Source of the DNA: Escherichia phage vB_EcoS_UTEC10
Strand: one strand, 5' to 3'
Length of the DNA stretch: 44,773 nt
Sequence record: PP291582.1
Of the stretch, positions 10,201 to 19,055 are shown piece by piece. The translations under genes and the position numbers were made by a program. The notes under the pieces are model-generated. The model did not search any database, was not told the DNA's origin, and saw only the letters and a list, made by a program, of their open reading frames with translations. Each line of letters begins with the position of its first letter. Positions within the stretch are counted from its first letter, which is position 1.

Positions 10201-10230
10201 TTGACATAATGAATAGTTCGCTATTATAGT
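10201..10230 (+). promoter_or_regulatory. strong sigma70-like promoter TTGACA-N18-TATAGT with embedded AATAG-N4-CTATT repeat
   Basis: Consensus -35; inverted repeat at 10212-10225 in the spacer; drives the acidic-protein gene. Confidence 0.6.
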
Positions 10231-12320: not shown

Positions 12321-12349
12321 TTGACACCTGAATAGTTAGCTATTATAGT
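12321..12349 (+). promoter_or_regulatory. sigma70-like promoter TTGACA-N17-TATAGT with embedded AATAG-N4-CTATT repeat
   Basis: Consensus -35; inverted repeat at 12331-12344. Confidence 0.6.
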
Positions 12350-13085: not shown

Positions 13086-13244
13086 ATGATGTTTTTCTGT
13101 AAACACGTTTATCGCTATATGAAACCGCTTCCTTGGTACGCGGATGAGTACCGGGCCGGGTACAGGCATGTGTGTATTTGCCGTGATTGTATGAAAATAA
13201 GACTCAGCGAAACGAAGGCACTGGATTTAAGGAAAAAGAAATGA
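13086..13244 (+). CDS. small Cys-rich protein (52 aa) coupled to the DNA polymerase gene
   Basis: Manually translated (MMFFCKHVYRYMKPLPWYADEYRAGYRHVCICRDCMK...); AAGGGT RBS; stop overlaps the polymerase ATG (ATGA at 13241). Confidence 0.35.
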   Translation: MMFFCKHVYRYMKPLPWYADEYRAGYRHVCICRDCMKIRLSETKALDLRKKK

Positions 13245-15412
13245 GCTACTTATACCTGGACTTTGAAACCTACAGCGACATCGATTTGAAGAAAGTCGGT
13301 TCCTACGCTTACGCCGAACACCCGTCAACCGAAGTGCTTATCTGCACATATGCTTTTGACGATGAGCCTGTAAGGGTATGGGATTGCACCGACGGCAGCG
13401 ACATGCCGGGCGATTTGCACCGCGCCTTGCGCCGCCTGGTGAAACCGAACAGTCGCATTAAGATGGTGTGGCACAACGGCTCAATGTTCGACCGTCTCAT
13501 CATGAAGCACTGCTGGGACTTTGATATTCCGGTAAGCAACACCATTGATACGATGATTTGGGCGTTTCGTCACGCGCTGCCGGGGTCACTCGATGCGTTG
13601 TGTGAAGTGCTTGGCGTATCTGCGGACAACGCAAAAGACAAACGCGGCAAGGCGCTCATACAACGTTTCTCTAAACCGACGCCGAAGAACTACAAAATCC
13701 GCCGCTACACCGCTGAAACGCACCCTGATGAGTGGGCGCTGTTCATCAAGTACGCCGTGAGTGACATCACTGCGATGCGTGAAGTCTTCCATAAGCTGCC
13801 GCGGTGGGGTAACTCCGAGTTCGAAGACCGTGTACTGGAGCTGGACCAGCTAATTAATGACCGCGGGTTTAAGGTTGACGTAGCGCTGGCGGAAGCTGCG
13901 ATTGAGGCTGTGGAGAAACACAAAGCGCAGTTACAGGAAGAAGCCCAACGTAAATACGGCGGCTCGCTGACTGGTAAGGATTTTCTGCCGATTCTGCGTG
14001 AACTGGCACCCGCGCACCGCATCCACAATGCGCAGAAGTCGACGCTGAATGACCTGCTGGCAGACGATGACTTACCTGACGACGCACGTACGATTATTGA
14101 AATGCGCCTTGGTGCGGCGTCCACTGCGTCAACGAAATATAACCCGCTGCTGTTGGGCCGCTCGTCGGACGACCGCCGTCGTGGTTGCATCCAGTATGGC
14201 GGGGCAAAGCGTACGCTACGGTTCGCCGGTAAAGGCTTTCAGCCGCAGAACCTGGCGCGCGGGTACTATCACGATGATGAACTGGATAAAGGCATTTCAG
14301 CGTTACTTAAGGGTCGTGCGCACCGCCGATTTGACGTAGCCAAGCTAACGGCATCAACGGTGCGTAGCTGCATTATCCCGGAAGCCGGGCATAAGTTTGT
14401 TGTCGCTGATTACTCGAACGTTGAAGGTCGCGGTCTTGCGTGGCTGGCGGGTGAAGACGATTTAATCGAAGTATTTGTAAACGGGGTTGATGTGTACAAG
14501 AAACTAGCATCAACGGTGTTCAACGTCGCGTATGAGGCCGTAACAAAGGACCAAAGACAAATCGCTAAAGCAATGGTTCTGGGCCTCGGCTACGCGGGGG
14601 GCGTAGGTGCTTTTGTCACGTTTGCTAAAAACTTAGGTCTTGATTTGAACGATATGACCAGCACTTTAGACGGGTCATTCCCTGACCACATCTGGGCCGC
14701 TACCGCACGCGGATATGAGTGGGCACGCATTCAGGAGGCCAAGAGACCGCCGCGGCCTGGTGAAAAGGATGACAGACCGTCGTATATTCTTGATAAGAAA
14801 GTGTGGCGTACCTGCGACGCTTTAAAGCGCATGTACCGAGAAGCTAATCCCGCAATAGTCCAATTCTGGCGGGATATTGAAGACGCGGCTATGGCAGCTA
14901 TCCGCAATCCGGGTAAAGAGTTCACCGCGGGGCCGCGAGGCGTTAAGTTTTCGCGTAACGTAGAGACAGATAACAACGGCAACAAAGTCGCCGGTTGGTG
15001 GTTGCGCATGACGTTGCCGTCGGGTCGTGTTATGTCCTACCCTGGCGTCGGATTAAGTGTGTCGAAAGAGACAGATGAAGACGGAAAGGTGTCTACTAAC
15101 GTGCGCATCAAGTATCAGGGTGAAAATCAGTTAACCCGTCAGTGGGGATTCCAGTACACATATTCCGGTAAACTCGTGGAAAACTGCACTCAGGCGCTGT
15201 GCCGTGATTTGCTGGCTAATGCACTGCTGAACGTAGAGGCAAACGGCTACCCGATTGTGCTTCATGTCCACGATGAGATTATCTGCGAGACACCAGATTT
15301 ACCAGAATACAATGTCGCAGAACTGGAACGATTGATGTGCGAATTACCGGAATGGGCCGAGGGGTTCCCTCTTGTAGCAGAAGGTGCGGAGATGAAGCGT
15401 TATGCTAAGTAA
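13241..15412 (+). CDS. family A DNA polymerase with N-terminal 3'-5' exonuclease domain
   Basis: Internal ATG of track ORF 13187..15412; LYLDFETYSD is an Exo I motif; C-terminal region has PolA-like motifs including HVHDEII. Confidence 0.85.
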   Translation: MSYLYLDFETYSDIDLKKVGSYAYAEHPSTEVLICTYAFDDEPVRVWDCTDGSDMPGDLHRALRRLVKPNSRIKMVWHNGSMFDRLIMKHCWDFDIPVSNTIDTMIWAFRHALPGSLDALCEVLGVSADNAKDKRGKALIQRFSKPTPKNYKIRRYTAETHPDEWALFIKYAVSDITAMREVFHKLPRWGNSEFEDRVLELDQLINDRGFKVDVALAEAAIEAVEKHKAQLQEEAQRKYGGSLTGKDFLPILRELAPAHRIHNAQKSTLNDLLADDDLPDDARTIIEMRLGAASTASTKYNPLLLGRSSDDRRRGCIQYGGAKRTLRFAGKGFQPQNLARGYYHDDELDKGISALLKGRAHRRFDVAKLTASTVRSCIIPEAGHKFVVADYSNVEGRGLAWLAGEDDLIEVFVNGVDVYKKLASTVFNVAYEAVTKDQRQIAKAMVLGLGYAGGVGAFVTFAKNLGLDLNDMTSTLDGSFPDHIWAATARGYEWARIQEAKRPPRPGEKDDRPSYILDKKVWRTCDALKRMYREANPAIVQFWRDIEDAAMAAIRNPGKEFTAGPRGVKFSRNVETDNNGNKVAGWWLRMTLPSGRVMSYPGVGLSVSKETDEDGKVSTNVRIKYQGENQLTRQWGFQYTYSGKLVENCTQALCRDLLANALLNVEANGYPIVLHVHDEIICETPDLPEYNVAELERLMCELPEWAEGFPLVAEGAEMKRYAK

Positions 15413-15619: not shown

Positions 15620-15810
15620 GTAACAAACCATTTAGTAAGAAACTAGCGGCGTTGGTGGATATGCCAGAATGGGAATTTATCATGGTAATGGGTTATGGGT
15701 TCTTCAGTGACGTTTGCGCCGGGTGTACGCACAAAGGCGTTTACTATTCGGAACACGACATCTATCAAGCGTACTTCCTGCGTAATCCAGATGCGGAGCC
15801 TTTGCTGTGA
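15616..15810 (+). CDS. hypothetical protein
   Basis: Internal ATG of track ORF 15607..15810 (MSNKPFSKK...). Confidence 0.45.
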   Translation: MSNKPFSKKLAALVDMPEWEFIMVMGYGFFSDVCAGCTHKGVYYSEHDIYQAYFLRNPDAEPLL

Positions 15811-16109
15811 CACCGGAAGGAAAAATACAGAAATACGCAAAAGAGCAATTCGAGGCCATTGGTGGCCTCGTTCGTAAACTTTCCTATGAGGGGCGCTCCG
15901 GCGCTCCCGACCTTCTGGTAATTCTCCCCGGCGGCATCGTCTGGTTCGTCGAGGTGAAGAAAGATGAAAACACGAAGCCAGACCCACACCAGCTACGGGA
16001 ACATGAGCGTATGCGTAAACGTGGTGCAAATGTTTTTGTCGTTGGTTCGTTTAAACAGGTTGACGACCTAATAGCGAACTATTATAGTAGTCATACACCA
16101 ACAATATAA
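15807..16109 (+). CDS. VRR-NUC domain nuclease
   Basis: GAPDLLVILPGGIVWFVEVKKD matches the VRR-NUC PD-(D/E)XK motif; GTG start overlapping the upstream stop. Confidence 0.65.
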   Translation: MTPEGKIQKYAKEQFEAIGGLVRKLSYEGRSGAPDLLVILPGGIVWFVEVKKDENTKPDPHQLREHERMRKRGANVFVVGSFKQVDDLIANYYSSHTPTI

Positions 16110-16120
16110 GGAATTGAGAA

Positions 16121-16312
16121 ATGAAACACGAATACGACCGCAAACCAGCACGCGACATCGTACCCGGCGACATGATTTTCAACGTTAAAACACGTCGTCC
16201 TGTTGCCGTAGATACGGTGTTCGTCGAGTCGAACGGTAAACTGGTTATCGAAGATGTAACTGGTAACGTCACGGCGTTCGGGCGTAAAGAGTTAGTTCTG
16301 GTGGCGAAATGA
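16121..16312 (+). CDS. hypothetical protein
   Basis: 63 aa track ORF with AAGGAATTGAG RBS. Confidence 0.5.
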   Translation: MKHEYDRKPARDIVPGDMIFNVKTRRPVAVDTVFVESNGKLVIEDVTGNVTAFGRKELVLVAK

Positions 16313-16992
16313 TTATCTGGTCATTGTTCGACGGTTCGGGCCTCATGGCCCAACCGTGGGCGGAAGCGGGCCATACTTGCTATTGTTTCAACTACGACGG
16401 CGCGGACCACGGAAACTATGCGCGATTGGGCGCAAAAGTTGAACACGAGAACATCCACTATATAAACGCGTGGATTGATAATAAGTTTGACTTCGAGGTT
16501 GCGCCAGATATTATTTTTGCGTTCCCTCCGTGTACAGATTTAGCCGTTAGCGGCGCGGCTCATTTCGAAACGAAGCGGAAGAAGAACCCAACTTTTCAGG
16601 TAGAGGCCGTGGTTACATGCAAAGTGGCTGCGCGTCTGGCTAAAAAGTACAACGTACCTTATATGATTGAGAACCCTGTTAGCGTTCTTTCGTCTTTATG
16701 GCGTAAGCCTGACTACTCGTTCAATCCATACGAATACGGCGGCTATTTACCCGAAGACGACACGCACCCAATGTTCCCTGAATACATAAAACCGCGGGAC
16801 GCGTACCCTAAGAAGACATGTATTTGGGCGGGTAACGGTTTTGTGATGCCCGTTAAATCATGTGTCGCCGTGGTTGGCGGTTACTCTGACCAACACAATA
16901 AATTAGGCGGTAAATCGGTGAGGACAAAAACAATCCGCAGCCTTACCCCGCGGGGTTTCGCAAAAGCAGTTTATGAGGCCAATCATGTCTAA
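16309..16992 (+). CDS. minimal DNA cytosine-C5 methyltransferase-like protein
   Basis: LFDGSG (motif I-like), FPPCTDLAVSG (PC catalytic motif IV-like), MIENP (motif VI-like); only 227 aa, so any target-recognition domain would be minimal. Confidence 0.45.
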   Translation: MIIWSLFDGSGLMAQPWAEAGHTCYCFNYDGADHGNYARLGAKVEHENIHYINAWIDNKFDFEVAPDIIFAFPPCTDLAVSGAAHFETKRKKNPTFQVEAVVTCKVAARLAKKYNVPYMIENPVSVLSSLWRKPDYSFNPYEYGGYLPEDDTHPMFPEYIKPRDAYPKKTCIWAGNGFVMPVKSCVAVVGGYSDQHNKLGGKSVRTKTIRSLTPRGFAKAVYEANHV

Positions 16993-18409
16993 GTTTAAAA
17001 GGCGCGAGTACCAGAAACTCATGACTTCGTTCATGCTACAACACCCACGTTGCAATATCTGGTGCGGTATGGGCGGCGGCAAGACCTCGTCGACAATGTG
17101 GGTTCTTAACCGACTGTTCCGCAACGGCCAACTTAACGATGACGACCGTGTGTTAATCCTTGCGCCGTTGCGTGTTGCGTCCGGCACATGGCCGGCAGAA
17201 CAAACTAAGTGGGGGTTCCCGTGTCTGCGCGTCGTAGATGCGACCGGTTCGGAGAAGCGCCGCATCGCGGCGCTGGAGTCCGATGCTAACGTGGTGTGCA
17301 CCAACTACGAAGTAATCGAGTGGCTTATTGACTACTACGGCAAAGACGACTGGCCTTTTACGGTTATCGTTGCCGATGAGAGCACGAAGTTGAAATCATT
17401 CCGCAGCCGTTCCGGTGGCAGCAAGAGAGCGAAGGCGCTTAGTAAAGTGGCGTTCGGTAAGGTTAAGCGTTTTATCAACCTTACGGGCACACCATCACCA
17501 AACGGACTCAAAGATTTGTGGGGCCAGAACTGGTTTATCGACGCTGGCGAGCGCCTGGGGTCTTCATACACGGCATTCACCGACCGCTGGTTTAACTCGG
17601 TACAGAAAGGCAAATCGGCTATGGCGCGCGAGTATCACGCCCGCCCGGGCGCGGACAATGAAATTCACCAGAAGATGAAGGACATTAGTCTCACGATTGA
17701 CGCCGCAGAGTGGTTCGGATGCGAAGCGCCGATTATTGTACCGGTTGAAATTGACCTGCCGAAGAAAGCGCGTCAGGCGTACATAGATATGGAGGAGAAG
17801 TTATTCGCGGAACTGGAGAGCGGAGAAGTTGAAGCGGCTAACGCGGCGGCGAAGACGTCTAAGTGTTTGCAGATTGCATCCGGTGCCGTATATGTGTCAG
17901 GCCCAGACGGCGAAGCAACCAAAGACTGGGAGAAAGTGCACGACACGAAACTTGATGCGCTGGAGTCCATTGTGGAGGAGTTGCAAGGCGCGCCGTTGCT
18001 TGTGGCCTATCAGTTCAAGCACGAACTGGAGCGCATCATTAAGCGGTTCCCGCAGGCGCAGGCGTTTGCAAAAGGCGCTAAGGGTAATAAGCAGATGGAA
18101 GCATGGAACCGTGGCGAAATCGAAATCTTATGCGTCCACCCCGCTTCAGCCGGGCATGGTTTGAATTTACAGGACGGCGGGCATCATCTGGCGTTTATTT
18201 CGCAAGGCTGGAACCTTGAGCACTATTTGCAGGTTGTCGAGCGCATAGGCCCAGTACGCCAGAAGCAGGCAGGCCACGAACGCCCGGTGTTCCTGTATCA
18301 CATAGTTGCTAAAGACACTCTTGATGAAGTTGTTGCCGCGCGTACAGACGAGAAAAGGTCTGTACAGGACGAACTGCTTAATTATATGAAGAGAAGGAGT
18401 AAGAAATGA
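16985..18409 (+). CDS. SNF2-family DNA helicase
   Basis: Internal ATG of track ORF 16973..18409; motif I GMGGGKT, motif II VIVADESTKLK, motif III NLTGTPSPNGLKDLW. Confidence 0.75.
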   Translation: MSKFKRREYQKLMTSFMLQHPRCNIWCGMGGGKTSSTMWVLNRLFRNGQLNDDDRVLILAPLRVASGTWPAEQTKWGFPCLRVVDATGSEKRRIAALESDANVVCTNYEVIEWLIDYYGKDDWPFTVIVADESTKLKSFRSRSGGSKRAKALSKVAFGKVKRFINLTGTPSPNGLKDLWGQNWFIDAGERLGSSYTAFTDRWFNSVQKGKSAMAREYHARPGADNEIHQKMKDISLTIDAAEWFGCEAPIIVPVEIDLPKKARQAYIDMEEKLFAELESGEVEAANAAAKTSKCLQIASGAVYVSGPDGEATKDWEKVHDTKLDALESIVEELQGAPLLVAYQFKHELERIIKRFPQAQAFAKGAKGNKQMEAWNRGEIEILCVHPASAGHGLNLQDGGHHLAFISQGWNLEHYLQVVERIGPVRQKQAGHERPVFLYHIVAKDTLDEVVAARTDEKRSVQDELLNYMKRRSKK

Positions 18410-18921
18410 TGGATTGCGAGGAGTTACTACTTAAGGCGCATCTGCTGGCGCGTGGGTTTGACGCCGACCGTCTCCGGGTAGTCTTAGCCCATGGCGTTGC
18501 CACATTCTACTTGTGGGGTTTTGACGGTAGGCTACGCGGATACCAGCATTACAAGCCACATGCTGAAAAGAACTGCAAGAATCCAAAGGATGCGCGGTAT
18601 TTTACCAGAACAACAAGACCGTGTTTATGGGGGCTTGAGTACTTGCCGCGTAGCGGGACCGTATTTGTTACCGAAAGCATATTTAAAGCTGTTGCTTTGA
18701 TGAATTGCGGGTTTAATGCAGTTAGCGCATTGGGGTCGAACATACCAGCTGACTTACGGCAGCAAATGTCACTTTTGCCGTATGAATGGGTGTGCGCCGG
18801 TGACAATGATAGAGCGGGCTTAAAGTTCAGCAAAACATTCACCAGAGGATTTGTATCTAACGACCTCGATGAACTTTGTGAAGAAGAAATAACGTATCTT
18901 GCGAGGAAATTTACCAGATGA
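18406..18921 (+). CDS. Toprim-domain protein
   Basis: VFVTESIFKA ... VCAGDNDRAG gives the conserved Glu and DxD of a Toprim fold; ATGA overlap with the helicase gene. Confidence 0.5.
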   Translation: MMDCEELLLKAHLLARGFDADRLRVVLAHGVATFYLWGFDGRLRGYQHYKPHAEKNCKNPKDARYFTRTTRPCLWGLEYLPRSGTVFVTESIFKAVALMNCGFNAVSALGSNIPADLRQQMSLLPYEWVCAGDNDRAGLKFSKTFTRGFVSNDLDELCEEEITYLARKFTR

Positions 18922-19055
18922 ACATCATAGCCCCGATTCCCGCATTGCAAAAACGTATCAAGGAACTCGAAGAAGAGGTTCTACGACTACGGCAGCAAAG
19001 AGACGCCGCTAATGCGCAACTGGCGTTTGTACTGGAGAAGTTATCAGAAGAGTAG
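18918..19055 (+). CDS. small coiled-coil protein (45 aa)
   Basis: Manually translated (MNIIAPIPALQKRIKELEEEVLRLRQQRDAANAQLAFVLEKLSEE); ATGA overlap with the Toprim gene. Confidence 0.3.
   Translation: MNIIAPIPALQKRIKELEEEVLRLRQQRDAANAQLAFVLEKLSEE

What the first reader, a model, noticed from the sequence alone, without database searches (positions are those of the whole stretch)
16309..16992. Minimal C5-cytosine methyltransferase-like protein inside the replication operon
Motifs LFDGSG, FPPC and ENP sit in the order expected for C5-MTase motifs I, IV and VI, but the protein is only 227 aa and the Cys is followed by Thr rather than Gln. It could be an orphan anti-restriction methylase with a tiny specificity domain, or a different nucleotide-modifying enzyme using the same fold.
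Basis: partly seen in the sequence, partly recalled or inferred. Interest (0 to 1): 0.5.

Follow-up and report, generated by a model that had tools for sequence, protein, structure and literature searches.

The report
Short phage DNA cytosine-C5 methyltransferase
This gene encodes an unusually short (227 aa) DNA cytosine-5 methyltransferase from a family already annotated in more than 1,500 phage genomes, one member of which has been shown to make 5-methylcytosine, so the finding is real but largely known.

Summary
The ORF at 16309..16992 (+) is real and carries the reported motifs: LFDGSG 6-11, FPPC-T 72-76, ENP 121-123. The window is a Kagunavirus-like phage. The protein is 100% identical to Raoultella phage RP180 QBZ71288.1, annotated "DNA cytosine methyltransferase". 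It belongs to PHROG 757 (E 2e-86), a phage-borne family of about 210-260 aa proteins found in 1,521 phage records and about 2,000 clusters at 50% identity.

So it is most likely an orphan SAM-dependent DNA C5-methyltransferase. It is not a canonical family member:
- It falls below the Pfam threshold.
- It has no QxRxR motif VIII and no GN motif X.
- Only about 34 residues sit where the target-recognition domain should be.

Inside that stretch, an 18-residue cassette (181-198) exists in two swapped forms. The window carries the form that has not been tested, so its target sequence is unknown. Novelty is low, with a modest open question about specificity.

The parts
16309..16992 (+). CDS for the 227-aa short C5-cytosine DNA methyltransferase (PHROG 757). 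It is 100% identical in protein to RP180 QBZ71288.1.
16324..16341 (+). Motif I (LFDGSG, residues 6-11). This is the FxGxG SAM-binding loop that follows strand beta-1.
   Evidence: hhalign to canonical motif I
16522..16536 (+). Motif IV (FPPC-T, residues 72-76). C75 is the predicted catalytic nucleophile and corresponds to C82 of the K42/KarlJaspers Dcm.
16669..16677 (+). Motif VI (ENP, residues 121-123). E121 corresponds to E128 of the K42 Dcm.
16723..16821 (+). Family-specific conserved stretch (residues 139-171) ending in PKKTC, between strands beta-6 and beta-7. It occupies the place of motif VIII (QxRxR). K168 and K169 correspond to K175 and K176 of the K42 Dcm.
   Evidence: The equivalence to motif VIII is inferred from strand order, not from a structural superposition.
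16849..16902 (+). Variable 18-residue cassette (residues 181-198, here PVKSCVAVVGGYSDQHNK). It lies where canonical enzymes carry the target-recognition domain and exists in two swapped forms across the family. It is a candidate mini-TRD.
16921..16965 (+). Motif IX-like segment (RTKTIRSLTPRGFAK, residues 205-219). It aligns to E. coli Dcm QQHRPRRLTPRECAR.
   Evidence: hhalign E 0.004-0.016, weak; conservation
16121..16312 (+). Upstream 63-aa ORF (PHROG 4879, unknown function). Its stop codon overlaps the MTase start (ATGA). It is 96-100% conserved in related Guernseyvirinae loci.
15807..16109 (+). VRR-NUC-like small nuclease. RP180 labels it 'restriction endonuclease', but it looks like a resolvase-type nuclease, not a cognate restriction enzyme.
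16973..18409 (+). SNF2-family helicase. It overlaps the MTase 3' end by 20 nt and is adjacent to the MTase in 24 of 80 related viral loci.
13187..15412 (+). Family A DNA polymerase with a 3'-5' exonuclease domain. It anchors the replication module upstream.
18406..18921 (+). Toprim/primase-like protein. It is the last large gene of the + strand replication block; a 45-aa ORF follows at 18918-19055.

Best explanation
The gene encodes an orphan, SAM-dependent DNA cytosine-C5 methyltransferase of a compact, phage-specific type. Catalysis is inferred to follow the standard C5-MTase route. The FxGxG loop binds SAM, Cys75 of the PPC motif attacks C6 of a flipped-out cytosine, Glu121 of ENP protonates N3, and the methyl group is transferred to C5. 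The enzyme is co-expressed with the polymerase and helicases and is expected to methylate replicating phage DNA, and incidentally host DNA. The most likely purpose is to blunt host restriction. A known cost is that such methylation can trip retron Ec86/Eco1. DNA recognition must rely on about 34 residues (176-209) between strand beta-7 and a motif IX-like helix, plus the catalytic loop and a conserved 139-171 stretch. The swapped 18-residue cassette within 176-209 is the likeliest specificity determinant. What is shown: the ORF, the motifs, their conservation, the fold class and the close homology to an enzyme with published 5mC activity. What is inferred: activity of this exact protein, its target sequence and its biological role.
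For: - Family: PHROG 757 'DNA methyltransferase', E 2.2e-86.
- Identity: 100% identical to the RP180 'DNA cytosine methyltransferase'.
- Homologue: 56% identity, E 8e-96 to the KarlJaspers Dcm-like protein, with C82/E128/K175/K176 matching C75/E121/K168/K169.
- Published activity: the K42 Dcm is the escape locus for retron Ec86. Expressing it raises 5mC on msDNA by LC-MS, and the C82A/E128A/K175A/K176A mutant does not. The peer-reviewed version is Cell Rep 2024;43:114857.
- Model: AlphaFold pLDDT 90.3 with a seven-strand class I MTase topology.
- Sequence link: hhalign joins motifs I-IV to canonical enzymes, and 14 of 51 family members hit PF00145.
- Fusions: natural fusions to a Dam-like DNA MTase and to an HNH nuclease point to DNA as the substrate.
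- Orphan status: no cognate restriction enzyme is encoded nearby.
Against: - No experiment has been done on this protein.
- Pfam PF00145 scores only 16.7 bits against a cut-off of 22, and covers residues 3-98 only.
- NCBIfam, PADLOC and PDB sequence searches give no hit.
- Canonical motif VIII (QxRxR) and motif X (GN) are not recognisable, and there is no TRD domain.
- The tested homologue carries the other cassette form (DNPGWAK), and its CCWGG specificity was assumed from E. coli Dcm and supported only by mutating the msDNA site.
- The BASEL study found no simple link between phage MTase genes and restriction resistance.
- CCWGG is mildly depleted in the window (84 sites against about 117 expected), which does not suggest full protection at that site.
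Confidence: 0.82

Rival explanations
1. The fold is the same but the chemistry differs. The enzyme transfers a group other than methyl, for example carboxymethyl from carboxy-SAM made by host CmoA, as phage CmoX does, giving a modified cytosine that could be elaborated further.
Against: The 56%-identical K42 enzyme raises 5mC, and its catalytic mutant does not. The CmoX signature SPPC is FPPC here. The closest annotated relative, RP180, lists no CmoA or amide ligase. R215 aligns best with the Arg of motif IX (RRLTPRE), not with motif X.
Confidence: 0.03
2. The real substrate is not duplex phage DNA. It could be RNA, as for the tRNA enzyme Dnmt2, or single-stranded or hairpin DNA such as replication intermediates or msDNA. 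That would fit the lack of a duplex-reading TRD.
Against: DNA MTases score higher than Dnmt2. Fusions are to a DNA adenine MTase and to an HNH nuclease. The msDNA site lies in the base-paired stem.
Confidence: 0.05
3. The enzyme is an active DNA C5-MTase, but its role is not classical anti-restriction. Examples are marking newly made phage DNA for the phage's own nucleases or packaging, altering host gene expression, or countering another defence.
For: BASEL found no pattern linking these genes to restriction sensitivity. The gene is embedded between nuclease and helicase genes in a replication module conserved in two phage groups. The genome still avoids many restriction-type palindromes: GATC 12 against 154 expected, GGTACC 0 against 13, and CCWGG mildly depleted.
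Against: Orphan phage MTases are generally protective (established knowledge). In 56 of 80 related loci the gene sits in other contexts, so it is not tied to the replication machinery. No direct data support any alternative role.
Confidence: 0.2
4. The protein is a catalytically dead remnant that only binds DNA or SAM.
For: It has a truncated architecture, a sub-threshold Pfam score and no motifs VIII or X.
Against: All core catalytic residues are invariant or >=90% conserved across the 51 close homologues and the 77 cluster representatives aligned. A homologue with the same architecture is active.
Confidence: 0.02

Closest known systems
Phage K42 / KarlJaspers (Bas06) 'Dcm-like C5 cytosine methyltransferase', the trigger of retron Ec86/Eco1 (bioRxiv 10.1101/2023.08.16.553469; Cell Rep 2024;43:114857)
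   Same: It belongs to the same family and has the same short architecture (236 against 227 aa). Identity is 56%, E 8e-96. The catalytic Cys, the ENP Glu and the KK pair are at matching positions.
   Different: It comes from a different phage family (Drexlerviridae, against Guernseyvirinae here) and a different gene neighbourhood. It carries the alternative DNPGWAK cassette where the window has GYSDQHNK. Target sequence and retron triggering therefore cannot simply be transferred.
Raoultella phage RP180 ORF33 (QBZ71288.1), 'DNA cytosine methyltransferase'
   Same: The protein is identical (227/227) and the DNA is 682/684 identical. Gene order is the same.
   Different: It is annotation only, with no experiment. 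The surrounding genome is only 83-94% identical, so the gene looks recently exchanged.
Canonical bacterial C5-MTases (M.HhaI, M.HaeIII, E. coli Dcm; Pfam PF00145)
   Different: It is about 100-245 residues shorter. It has PCT instead of PCQ, ENP instead of ENV, and PKKTC where QxRxR should be. There is no GN motif X and no TRD domain. It scores below the Pfam cut-off, and tblastn with E. coli Dcm finds no similarity even at E <= 10.
DNMT3A/DNMT3B catalytic domains
   Different: Identity is only 12-16%. DNMT3 enzymes keep motifs VIII and X and read DNA as dimers or tetramers (established knowledge). The oligomeric state of the phage enzyme is unknown.
CmoX, the phage DNA cytosine C5-carboxymethyltransferase (PDB 8yf3; PMC12783734)
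   Different: CmoX has 333 residues in the solved chain, carries SPPC and a cofactor-selecting Arg in motif X, and is typically encoded alongside CmoA. The SPPC motif is absent here, RP180 lists no CmoA, and the Arg position could not be mapped.

Membership tests
C5-cytosine DNA methyltransferases (Pfam PF00145 / ten-motif family) | Score above the curated Pfam gathering threshold | tested here: not met
   16.7 bits against a cut-off of 22, E 0.0052, residues 3-98 only. 14 of 51 family members reach E <= 0.01.
C5-cytosine DNA methyltransferases (Pfam PF00145 / ten-motif family) | Motif I FxGxG (SAM binding) | tested here: met
   F7-D8-G9-S10-G11. F7, S10 and G11 are invariant in 51 homologues. 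It aligns to canonical motif I by hhalign.
C5-cytosine DNA methyltransferases (Pfam PF00145 / ten-motif family) | Motif IV Pro-Cys with the catalytic cysteine (usually PCQ) | tested here: met
   P74-C75 is invariant and aligns to GFPCQ. The next residue is Thr, not Gln, in 202 of the 215 retrieved family sequences that contain PPC.
C5-cytosine DNA methyltransferases (Pfam PF00145 / ten-motif family) | Motif VI ENV | tested here: met
   E121-N122-P123 at the end of strand beta-5. Val is replaced by Pro.
C5-cytosine DNA methyltransferases (Pfam PF00145 / ten-motif family) | Motif VIII QxRxR | tested here: not met
   PKKTC (167-171) sits at the start of strand beta-7. No QxRxR is present, and hhalign does not align this region.
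C5-cytosine DNA methyltransferases (Pfam PF00145 / ten-motif family) | Target-recognition domain (about 80 residues or more) between motifs VIII and IX | tested here: not met
   Only about 34 residues (176-209) separate beta-7 from the motif IX-like segment.
C5-cytosine DNA methyltransferases (Pfam PF00145 / ten-motif family) | Motif IX (RxLTxRE...) | tested here: inconclusive
   RSLTPRGFAK aligns to Dcm RRLTPRECAR, but only at hhalign E 0.004-0.016 and probability 3-9%.
C5-cytosine DNA methyltransferases (Pfam PF00145 / ten-motif family) | Motif X (GNS/AV) closing the SAM pocket | tested here: not met
   The protein ends 8 residues after the aligned motif IX-like segment (residue 219 of 227). 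No GN motif is present. N225 is >=90% conserved, but its equivalence is unknown.
C5-cytosine DNA methyltransferases (Pfam PF00145 / ten-motif family) | C5-MTase catalytic-domain fold | tested here: met
C5-cytosine DNA methyltransferases (Pfam PF00145 / ten-motif family) | SAM-dependent formation of 5-methylcytosine in DNA | not testable with these tools
   It is shown only for a 56%-identical homologue in the literature.
Short phage 'Dcm-like' methyltransferases (PHROG 757; K42/KarlJaspers Dcm type) | Full-length match to the family profile and to the characterised member | tested here: met
   PHROG 757 E 2.2e-86, residues 1-226. 56% identity and E 8e-96 over 225 of 227 residues to the KarlJaspers Dcm.
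Short phage 'Dcm-like' methyltransferases (PHROG 757; K42/KarlJaspers Dcm type) | Conservation of the residues mutated in the inactive K42 variant (C82, E128, K175, K176) | tested here: met
   They correspond to C75, E121, K168 and K169 and are conserved across the family.
Short phage 'Dcm-like' methyltransferases (PHROG 757; K42/KarlJaspers Dcm type) | Same variable cassette, and so presumably the same target site, as the characterised member | tested here: not met
   The window has GYSDQHNK and K42/KarlJaspers has DNPGWAK.
E. coli Dcm / EcoRII-type CCWGG methyltransferases | Detectable sequence similarity to Dcm, including its TRD | tested here: not met
   tblastn of E. coli Dcm against the window gives no hit at the gene even at E <= 10. 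A Dcm search of the phage collection at E <= 1e-20 lists no Kagunavirus- or Jerseyvirus-type phage among the rows shown.
CmoX DNA cytosine C5-carboxymethyltransferases | SPPC motif | tested here: not met
   The motif here is FPPC; the criterion comes.
CmoX DNA cytosine C5-carboxymethyltransferases | Arg replacing the motif X Asn (R350 in SpCmoX) | tested here: inconclusive
   The position could not be mapped because no motif X is recognisable; the criterion comes.
CmoX DNA cytosine C5-carboxymethyltransferases | Phage-encoded CmoA (Cx-SAM synthase), typically found alongside CmoX | tested here: not met
   The closest annotated relative, RP180, lists no CmoA. The window's own genes were not all scanned.
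Type II restriction-modification methyltransferase | Adjacent cognate restriction endonuclease | tested here: not met
   The neighbours are a 100-aa VRR-NUC-like nuclease and an SNF2 helicase. The MTase matches no PADLOC model.

The most novel reading that the evidence does not exclude
The 18-residue cassette (residues 181-198), which occupies the place of the TRD and occurs in two forms that have been swapped between otherwise 88-92% identical proteins, may be the whole sequence-reading element of this family. If so, these would be the smallest sequence-specific C5-MTases known. They might read DNA as dimers, as DNMT3A does. The two cassette forms would encode two target specificities, and the form in this window has not been characterised. 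It could also decide whether a phage trips retron Eco1.
Probability: 0.3. Interest if true: 0.55.

Novelty: already known. Interest (0 to 1): 0.3.

Why it matters
As a gene call this is routine. The identical protein is already annotated, and a homologue is a published retron trigger. What remains of value is mechanistic. The family shows that a C5-MTase can work with about 227 residues, without a recognisable TRD or motifs VIII and X. Yet its target sequence has never been measured directly. The swapped 18-residue cassette gives a simple experiment, allele exchange followed by methylome sequencing, to find out how such a minimal enzyme reads DNA. The result would also help predict which Kagunavirus, Jerseyvirus and T1-like therapeutic phages escape restriction and which activate retron Eco1.

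Tried and rejected
- Sequence searches against PDB chains, with the single protein and with the family profile, found nothing even at E <= 10.
- NCBIfam and PADLOC gave no hit for the MTase.
- Profile-profile alignment to seven canonical C5-MTases joined only motifs I-IV (probability 41%). Sub-alignments of the C-terminal half gave only the weak motif IX match.
- The afdb50 fold library was not available.
- The peer-reviewed retron paper (Cell Rep 2024) is not held, so only the preprint was read.
- Literature searches for a measured methylation motif in Kagunavirus, Jerseyvirus or Drexlerviridae phages found only annotation-level mentions.
- The promoter and terminator scan did not differ from shuffled sequence.
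- The genome-collection scan found only 2 loci, one of them a 4.3-kb contig in a metagenome-assembled genome. It relied on two exact peptide patterns, so it only weakly supports a phage-only distribution.
- Counts of CCWGG and other palindromes do not reveal the target site.
- I considered that the neighbouring 'restriction endonuclease' of RP180 made this an R-M pair and rejected it, because that gene is a 100-aa VRR-NUC/resolvase-type protein.

Full report
**Observation**

The ORF at 16309..16992 on the + strand starts with ATG and encodes 227 residues. Its translation carries three motifs in the order of C5-methyltransferase motifs I, IV and VI:
- LFDGSG at residues 6-11
- FPPC followed by Thr at residues 72-76
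- ENP at residues 121-123

These residues are not chance matches. In 51 homologues of 59-95% identity, F7, S10, G11, P73, P74, C75, T76, E121, N122 and P123 are invariant. Across 77 representatives of 50%-identity clusters, PPCT and ENP are still at least 90% conserved.

**Setting**

The window is a Kagunavirus-like phage genome (Guernseyvirinae). The region is 93% identical in DNA to Raoultella phage RP180, and 455 phage records match it. The gene lies in a + strand replication block:
- a 746-aa ORF corresponding to RP180's primase/helicase
- a 418-aa ORF corresponding to RP180's Cas4-like nuclease
- family A DNA polymerase with a 3'-5' exonuclease
- small ORFs
- a 100-aa VRR-NUC-like nuclease
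- a 63-aa ORF of unknown function
- the methyltransferase
- an SNF2-family helicase
- a Toprim/primase-like protein

The upstream stop codon overlaps the MTase start (ATGA), and the helicase ORF overlaps the MTase 3' end by 20 nt. "Inside the replication operon" is therefore a fair description. No cognate restriction enzyme is present. The gene that RP180 labels "restriction endonuclease" is the VRR-NUC/resolvase-type protein.

**Family**

Pfam's C5-methylase model matches only weakly: 16.7 bits against a cut-off of 22, residues 3-98. NCBIfam, PADLOC and PDB sequence searches find nothing.

The phage-specific library is unambiguous: PHROG 757 "DNA methyltransferase", E 2.2e-86 over the full length. 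Further searches show the size of the family:
- tblastn finds relatives in 1,521 phage records, including Escherichia, Klebsiella, Salmonella, Campylobacter, Vibrio and Arthrobacter phages. Many are annotated as cytosine methylase or Dcm.
- The large protein database holds 7,190 homologues.
- An exhaustive profile search finds 1,984 clusters at 50% identity, mostly 210-260 aa long.
- The RP180 protein QBZ71288.1, annotated "DNA cytosine methyltransferase", is 100% identical.
- A pattern-based scan of 185,579 species-representative bacterial and archaeal genomes found only two loci, one a 4.3-kb contig in a metagenome-assembled genome. This weakly supports a phage-borne distribution.

**Fold**

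An AlphaFold2 model built on the 51-sequence alignment is confident (mean pLDDT 90.3, pTM 0.89). It has the seven-strand class I methyltransferase layout. The lowest confidence is in the catalytic loop, residues 71-90.

**Link to an experiment**

A retron study reports that phage K42, a close relative of BASEL phage KarlJaspers, escapes retron Ec86 by losing a 711-bp dcm gene. Expressing that Dcm is toxic only when the retron is present. It also raises 5mC on msDNA by LC-MS, whereas the C82A/E128A/K175A/K176A mutant does not. The peer-reviewed version is Cell Rep 2024;43:114857, which I could not read.

I fetched KarlJaspers (MZ501090). Its 236-aa "Dcm-like C5 cytosine methyltransferase" is 56% identical to the window protein (E 8e-96). 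C82, E128, K175 and K176 fall exactly on C75, E121, K168 and K169. The window protein therefore belongs to a family with published 5mC-forming activity.

**How it departs from canonical enzymes**

I aligned seven canonical C5-MTases: E. coli Dcm and six phage enzymes of 302-360 aa. Profile-profile comparison with the window family links only motifs I-IV.

The C-terminal half gives one weak local match. RTKTIRSLTPRGFAK (residues 205-219) aligns to Dcm motif IX, QQHRPRRLTPRECAR, at E 0.004-0.016. Other departures are:
- There is no QxRxR. PKKTC sits at the start of strand beta-7.
- There is no GN motif X. The protein ends 8 residues after the aligned motif IX-like segment.
- Only about 34 residues (176-209) lie where canonical enzymes have a TRD of 80 residues or more.
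- A conserved stretch (residues 139-171) specific to the family lies between beta-6 and beta-7.
- E. coli Dcm does not detect the gene by tblastn even at E 10, so the label "Dcm" is a loose one.

On my membership test the protein has the C5-MTase fold and core catalytic motifs. It fails the Pfam threshold and the tests for motif VIII, motif X and the TRD.

**A swapped cassette at the TRD position**

Within residues 181-198 the family has two alternative forms:
- G-Y-S-x-Q-H-x-K, found in the window, RP180 and most members
- D-N-P-G-W-A-K

The window's nearest Salmonella and Escherichia phage relatives are 88-92% identical outside this segment but only 22-33% identical inside it. Among 80 related viral loci, 58 carry the first form and 18 the second, and both occur within the closely related Guernseyvirinae group. 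KarlJaspers, and by inference K42, carries the second form.

The CCWGG specificity claimed for K42 was assumed by analogy with host Dcm and supported only by mutating the msDNA site. The target sequence of the window enzyme is therefore unknown. The cassette's position is my reason for proposing it as a minimal specificity element. That is an inference.

**Mobility and context**

The MTase gene is 682/684 nt identical to RP180. A patch of 100% identity runs from about 16,415 to 17,060 and is flanked by DNA of 83-94% identity, which indicates recent exchange.

The polymerase / VRR-NUC / MTase / SNF2 arrangement is kept in 24 of 80 loci (Guernseyvirinae and Dhillonvirus-like). The other 56 loci place the gene elsewhere, so the enzyme is not tied to the helicase.

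Some relatives are fused to other domains: a Dam-like N6-adenine DNA MTase, an HNH nuclease and, in one predicted viral structure, a helicase. These fusions support DNA as the substrate.

**Mechanism and role**

The most likely mechanism is SAM-dependent C5 methylation of cytosine in DNA, using Cys75 as nucleophile and Glu121 as the acid (confidence about 0.8). The enzyme acts as an orphan, made alongside the replication proteins.

The anti-restriction role is plausible but unproven. BASEL found no simple relation between such genes and restriction sensitivity. The genome also still avoids many palindromes, including a mild depletion of CCWGG. The published consequence for a homologue is a cost: activation of retron Eco1.

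**Rivals**

- A carboxy-SAM-using enzyme like CmoX is unlikely. The homologue makes 5mC, the SPPC signature is absent, and RP180 encodes no CmoA or ligase. The cofactor pocket cannot be read from sequence because motif X is missing.
- An RNA or single-strand substrate, or a dead enzyme, is also unlikely.

**Verdict**

The gene is an already annotated member of a known phage family with a characterised homologue, so novelty is low.

The open points are the target sequence, how so small an enzyme reads DNA, and whether the two cassette forms differ in specificity. These are directly testable and give the finding modest residual interest (0.3).

Noticed in passing
window, whole sequence: GATC is extremely depleted: 12 sites against about 154 expected from a Markov model (z about -16). 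No Dam-like gene was found by tblastn. GGTACC occurs 0 times against about 13 expected, and CTAG, GGCGCC and AAGCTT are also low. CCWGG is only mildly low (84 against about 117).
   Followed up: partly
window 16415-17060: A patch of 100% nucleotide identity to Raoultella phage RP180 covers most of the MTase gene and the start of the helicase gene. Flanking DNA is 83-94% identical. This suggests recent recombination that carried the MTase allele.
   Followed up: yes
window 16849-16902 (MTase residues 181-198) and loci L012-L091: The segment exists in two forms (GYSxQHxK and DNPGWAK) that are swapped between otherwise near-identical proteins. L014 looks like a hybrid (AVGAG + YSDQHKK), which implies recombination breakpoints inside the gene.
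   Followed up: yes
window 16121-16312: A 63-aa ORF (PHROG 4879, unknown function) is translationally coupled to the MTase start. It is 96-100% identical across Guernseyvirinae loci where the MTase itself is only 85-88% identical. It is not detected in Dhillonvirus-like loci.
   Followed up: partly
proteins P0253 and P0255; BFVD entry A0A6J5SE15: Longer relatives fuse the short C5-MTase domain to a D12-class (Dam-like) adenine MTase (563 aa) or to an HNH endonuclease (348 aa). One predicted viral protein of 1,397 aa, named Helicase/UvrB N-terminal, also matches the model.
   Followed up: partly
window 16973-18409: The SNF2 helicase next to the MTase matches helicase components of defence systems in PADLOC (DpdE, ZorD, DrmD; E 1e-8 to 1e-13). 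This probably reflects the shared SNF2 fold rather than a defence role.
   Followed up: no
window 10201-10230 and 12321-12349: Two near-consensus sigma-70-like promoters (TTGACA / TATAGT, 11 of 12 matches) lie on the + strand upstream of the replication genes. The overall count of promoter-like sites is no higher than in shuffled sequence.
   Followed up: no
literature: The K42 Dcm experiments were done in dcm+ MG1655, where control msDNA carried little 5mC and the retron was not toxic without the phage Dcm. This suggests that the phage enzyme differs from host Dcm in specificity, substrate form or level. The preprint assumes CCWGG for both.
   Followed up: no
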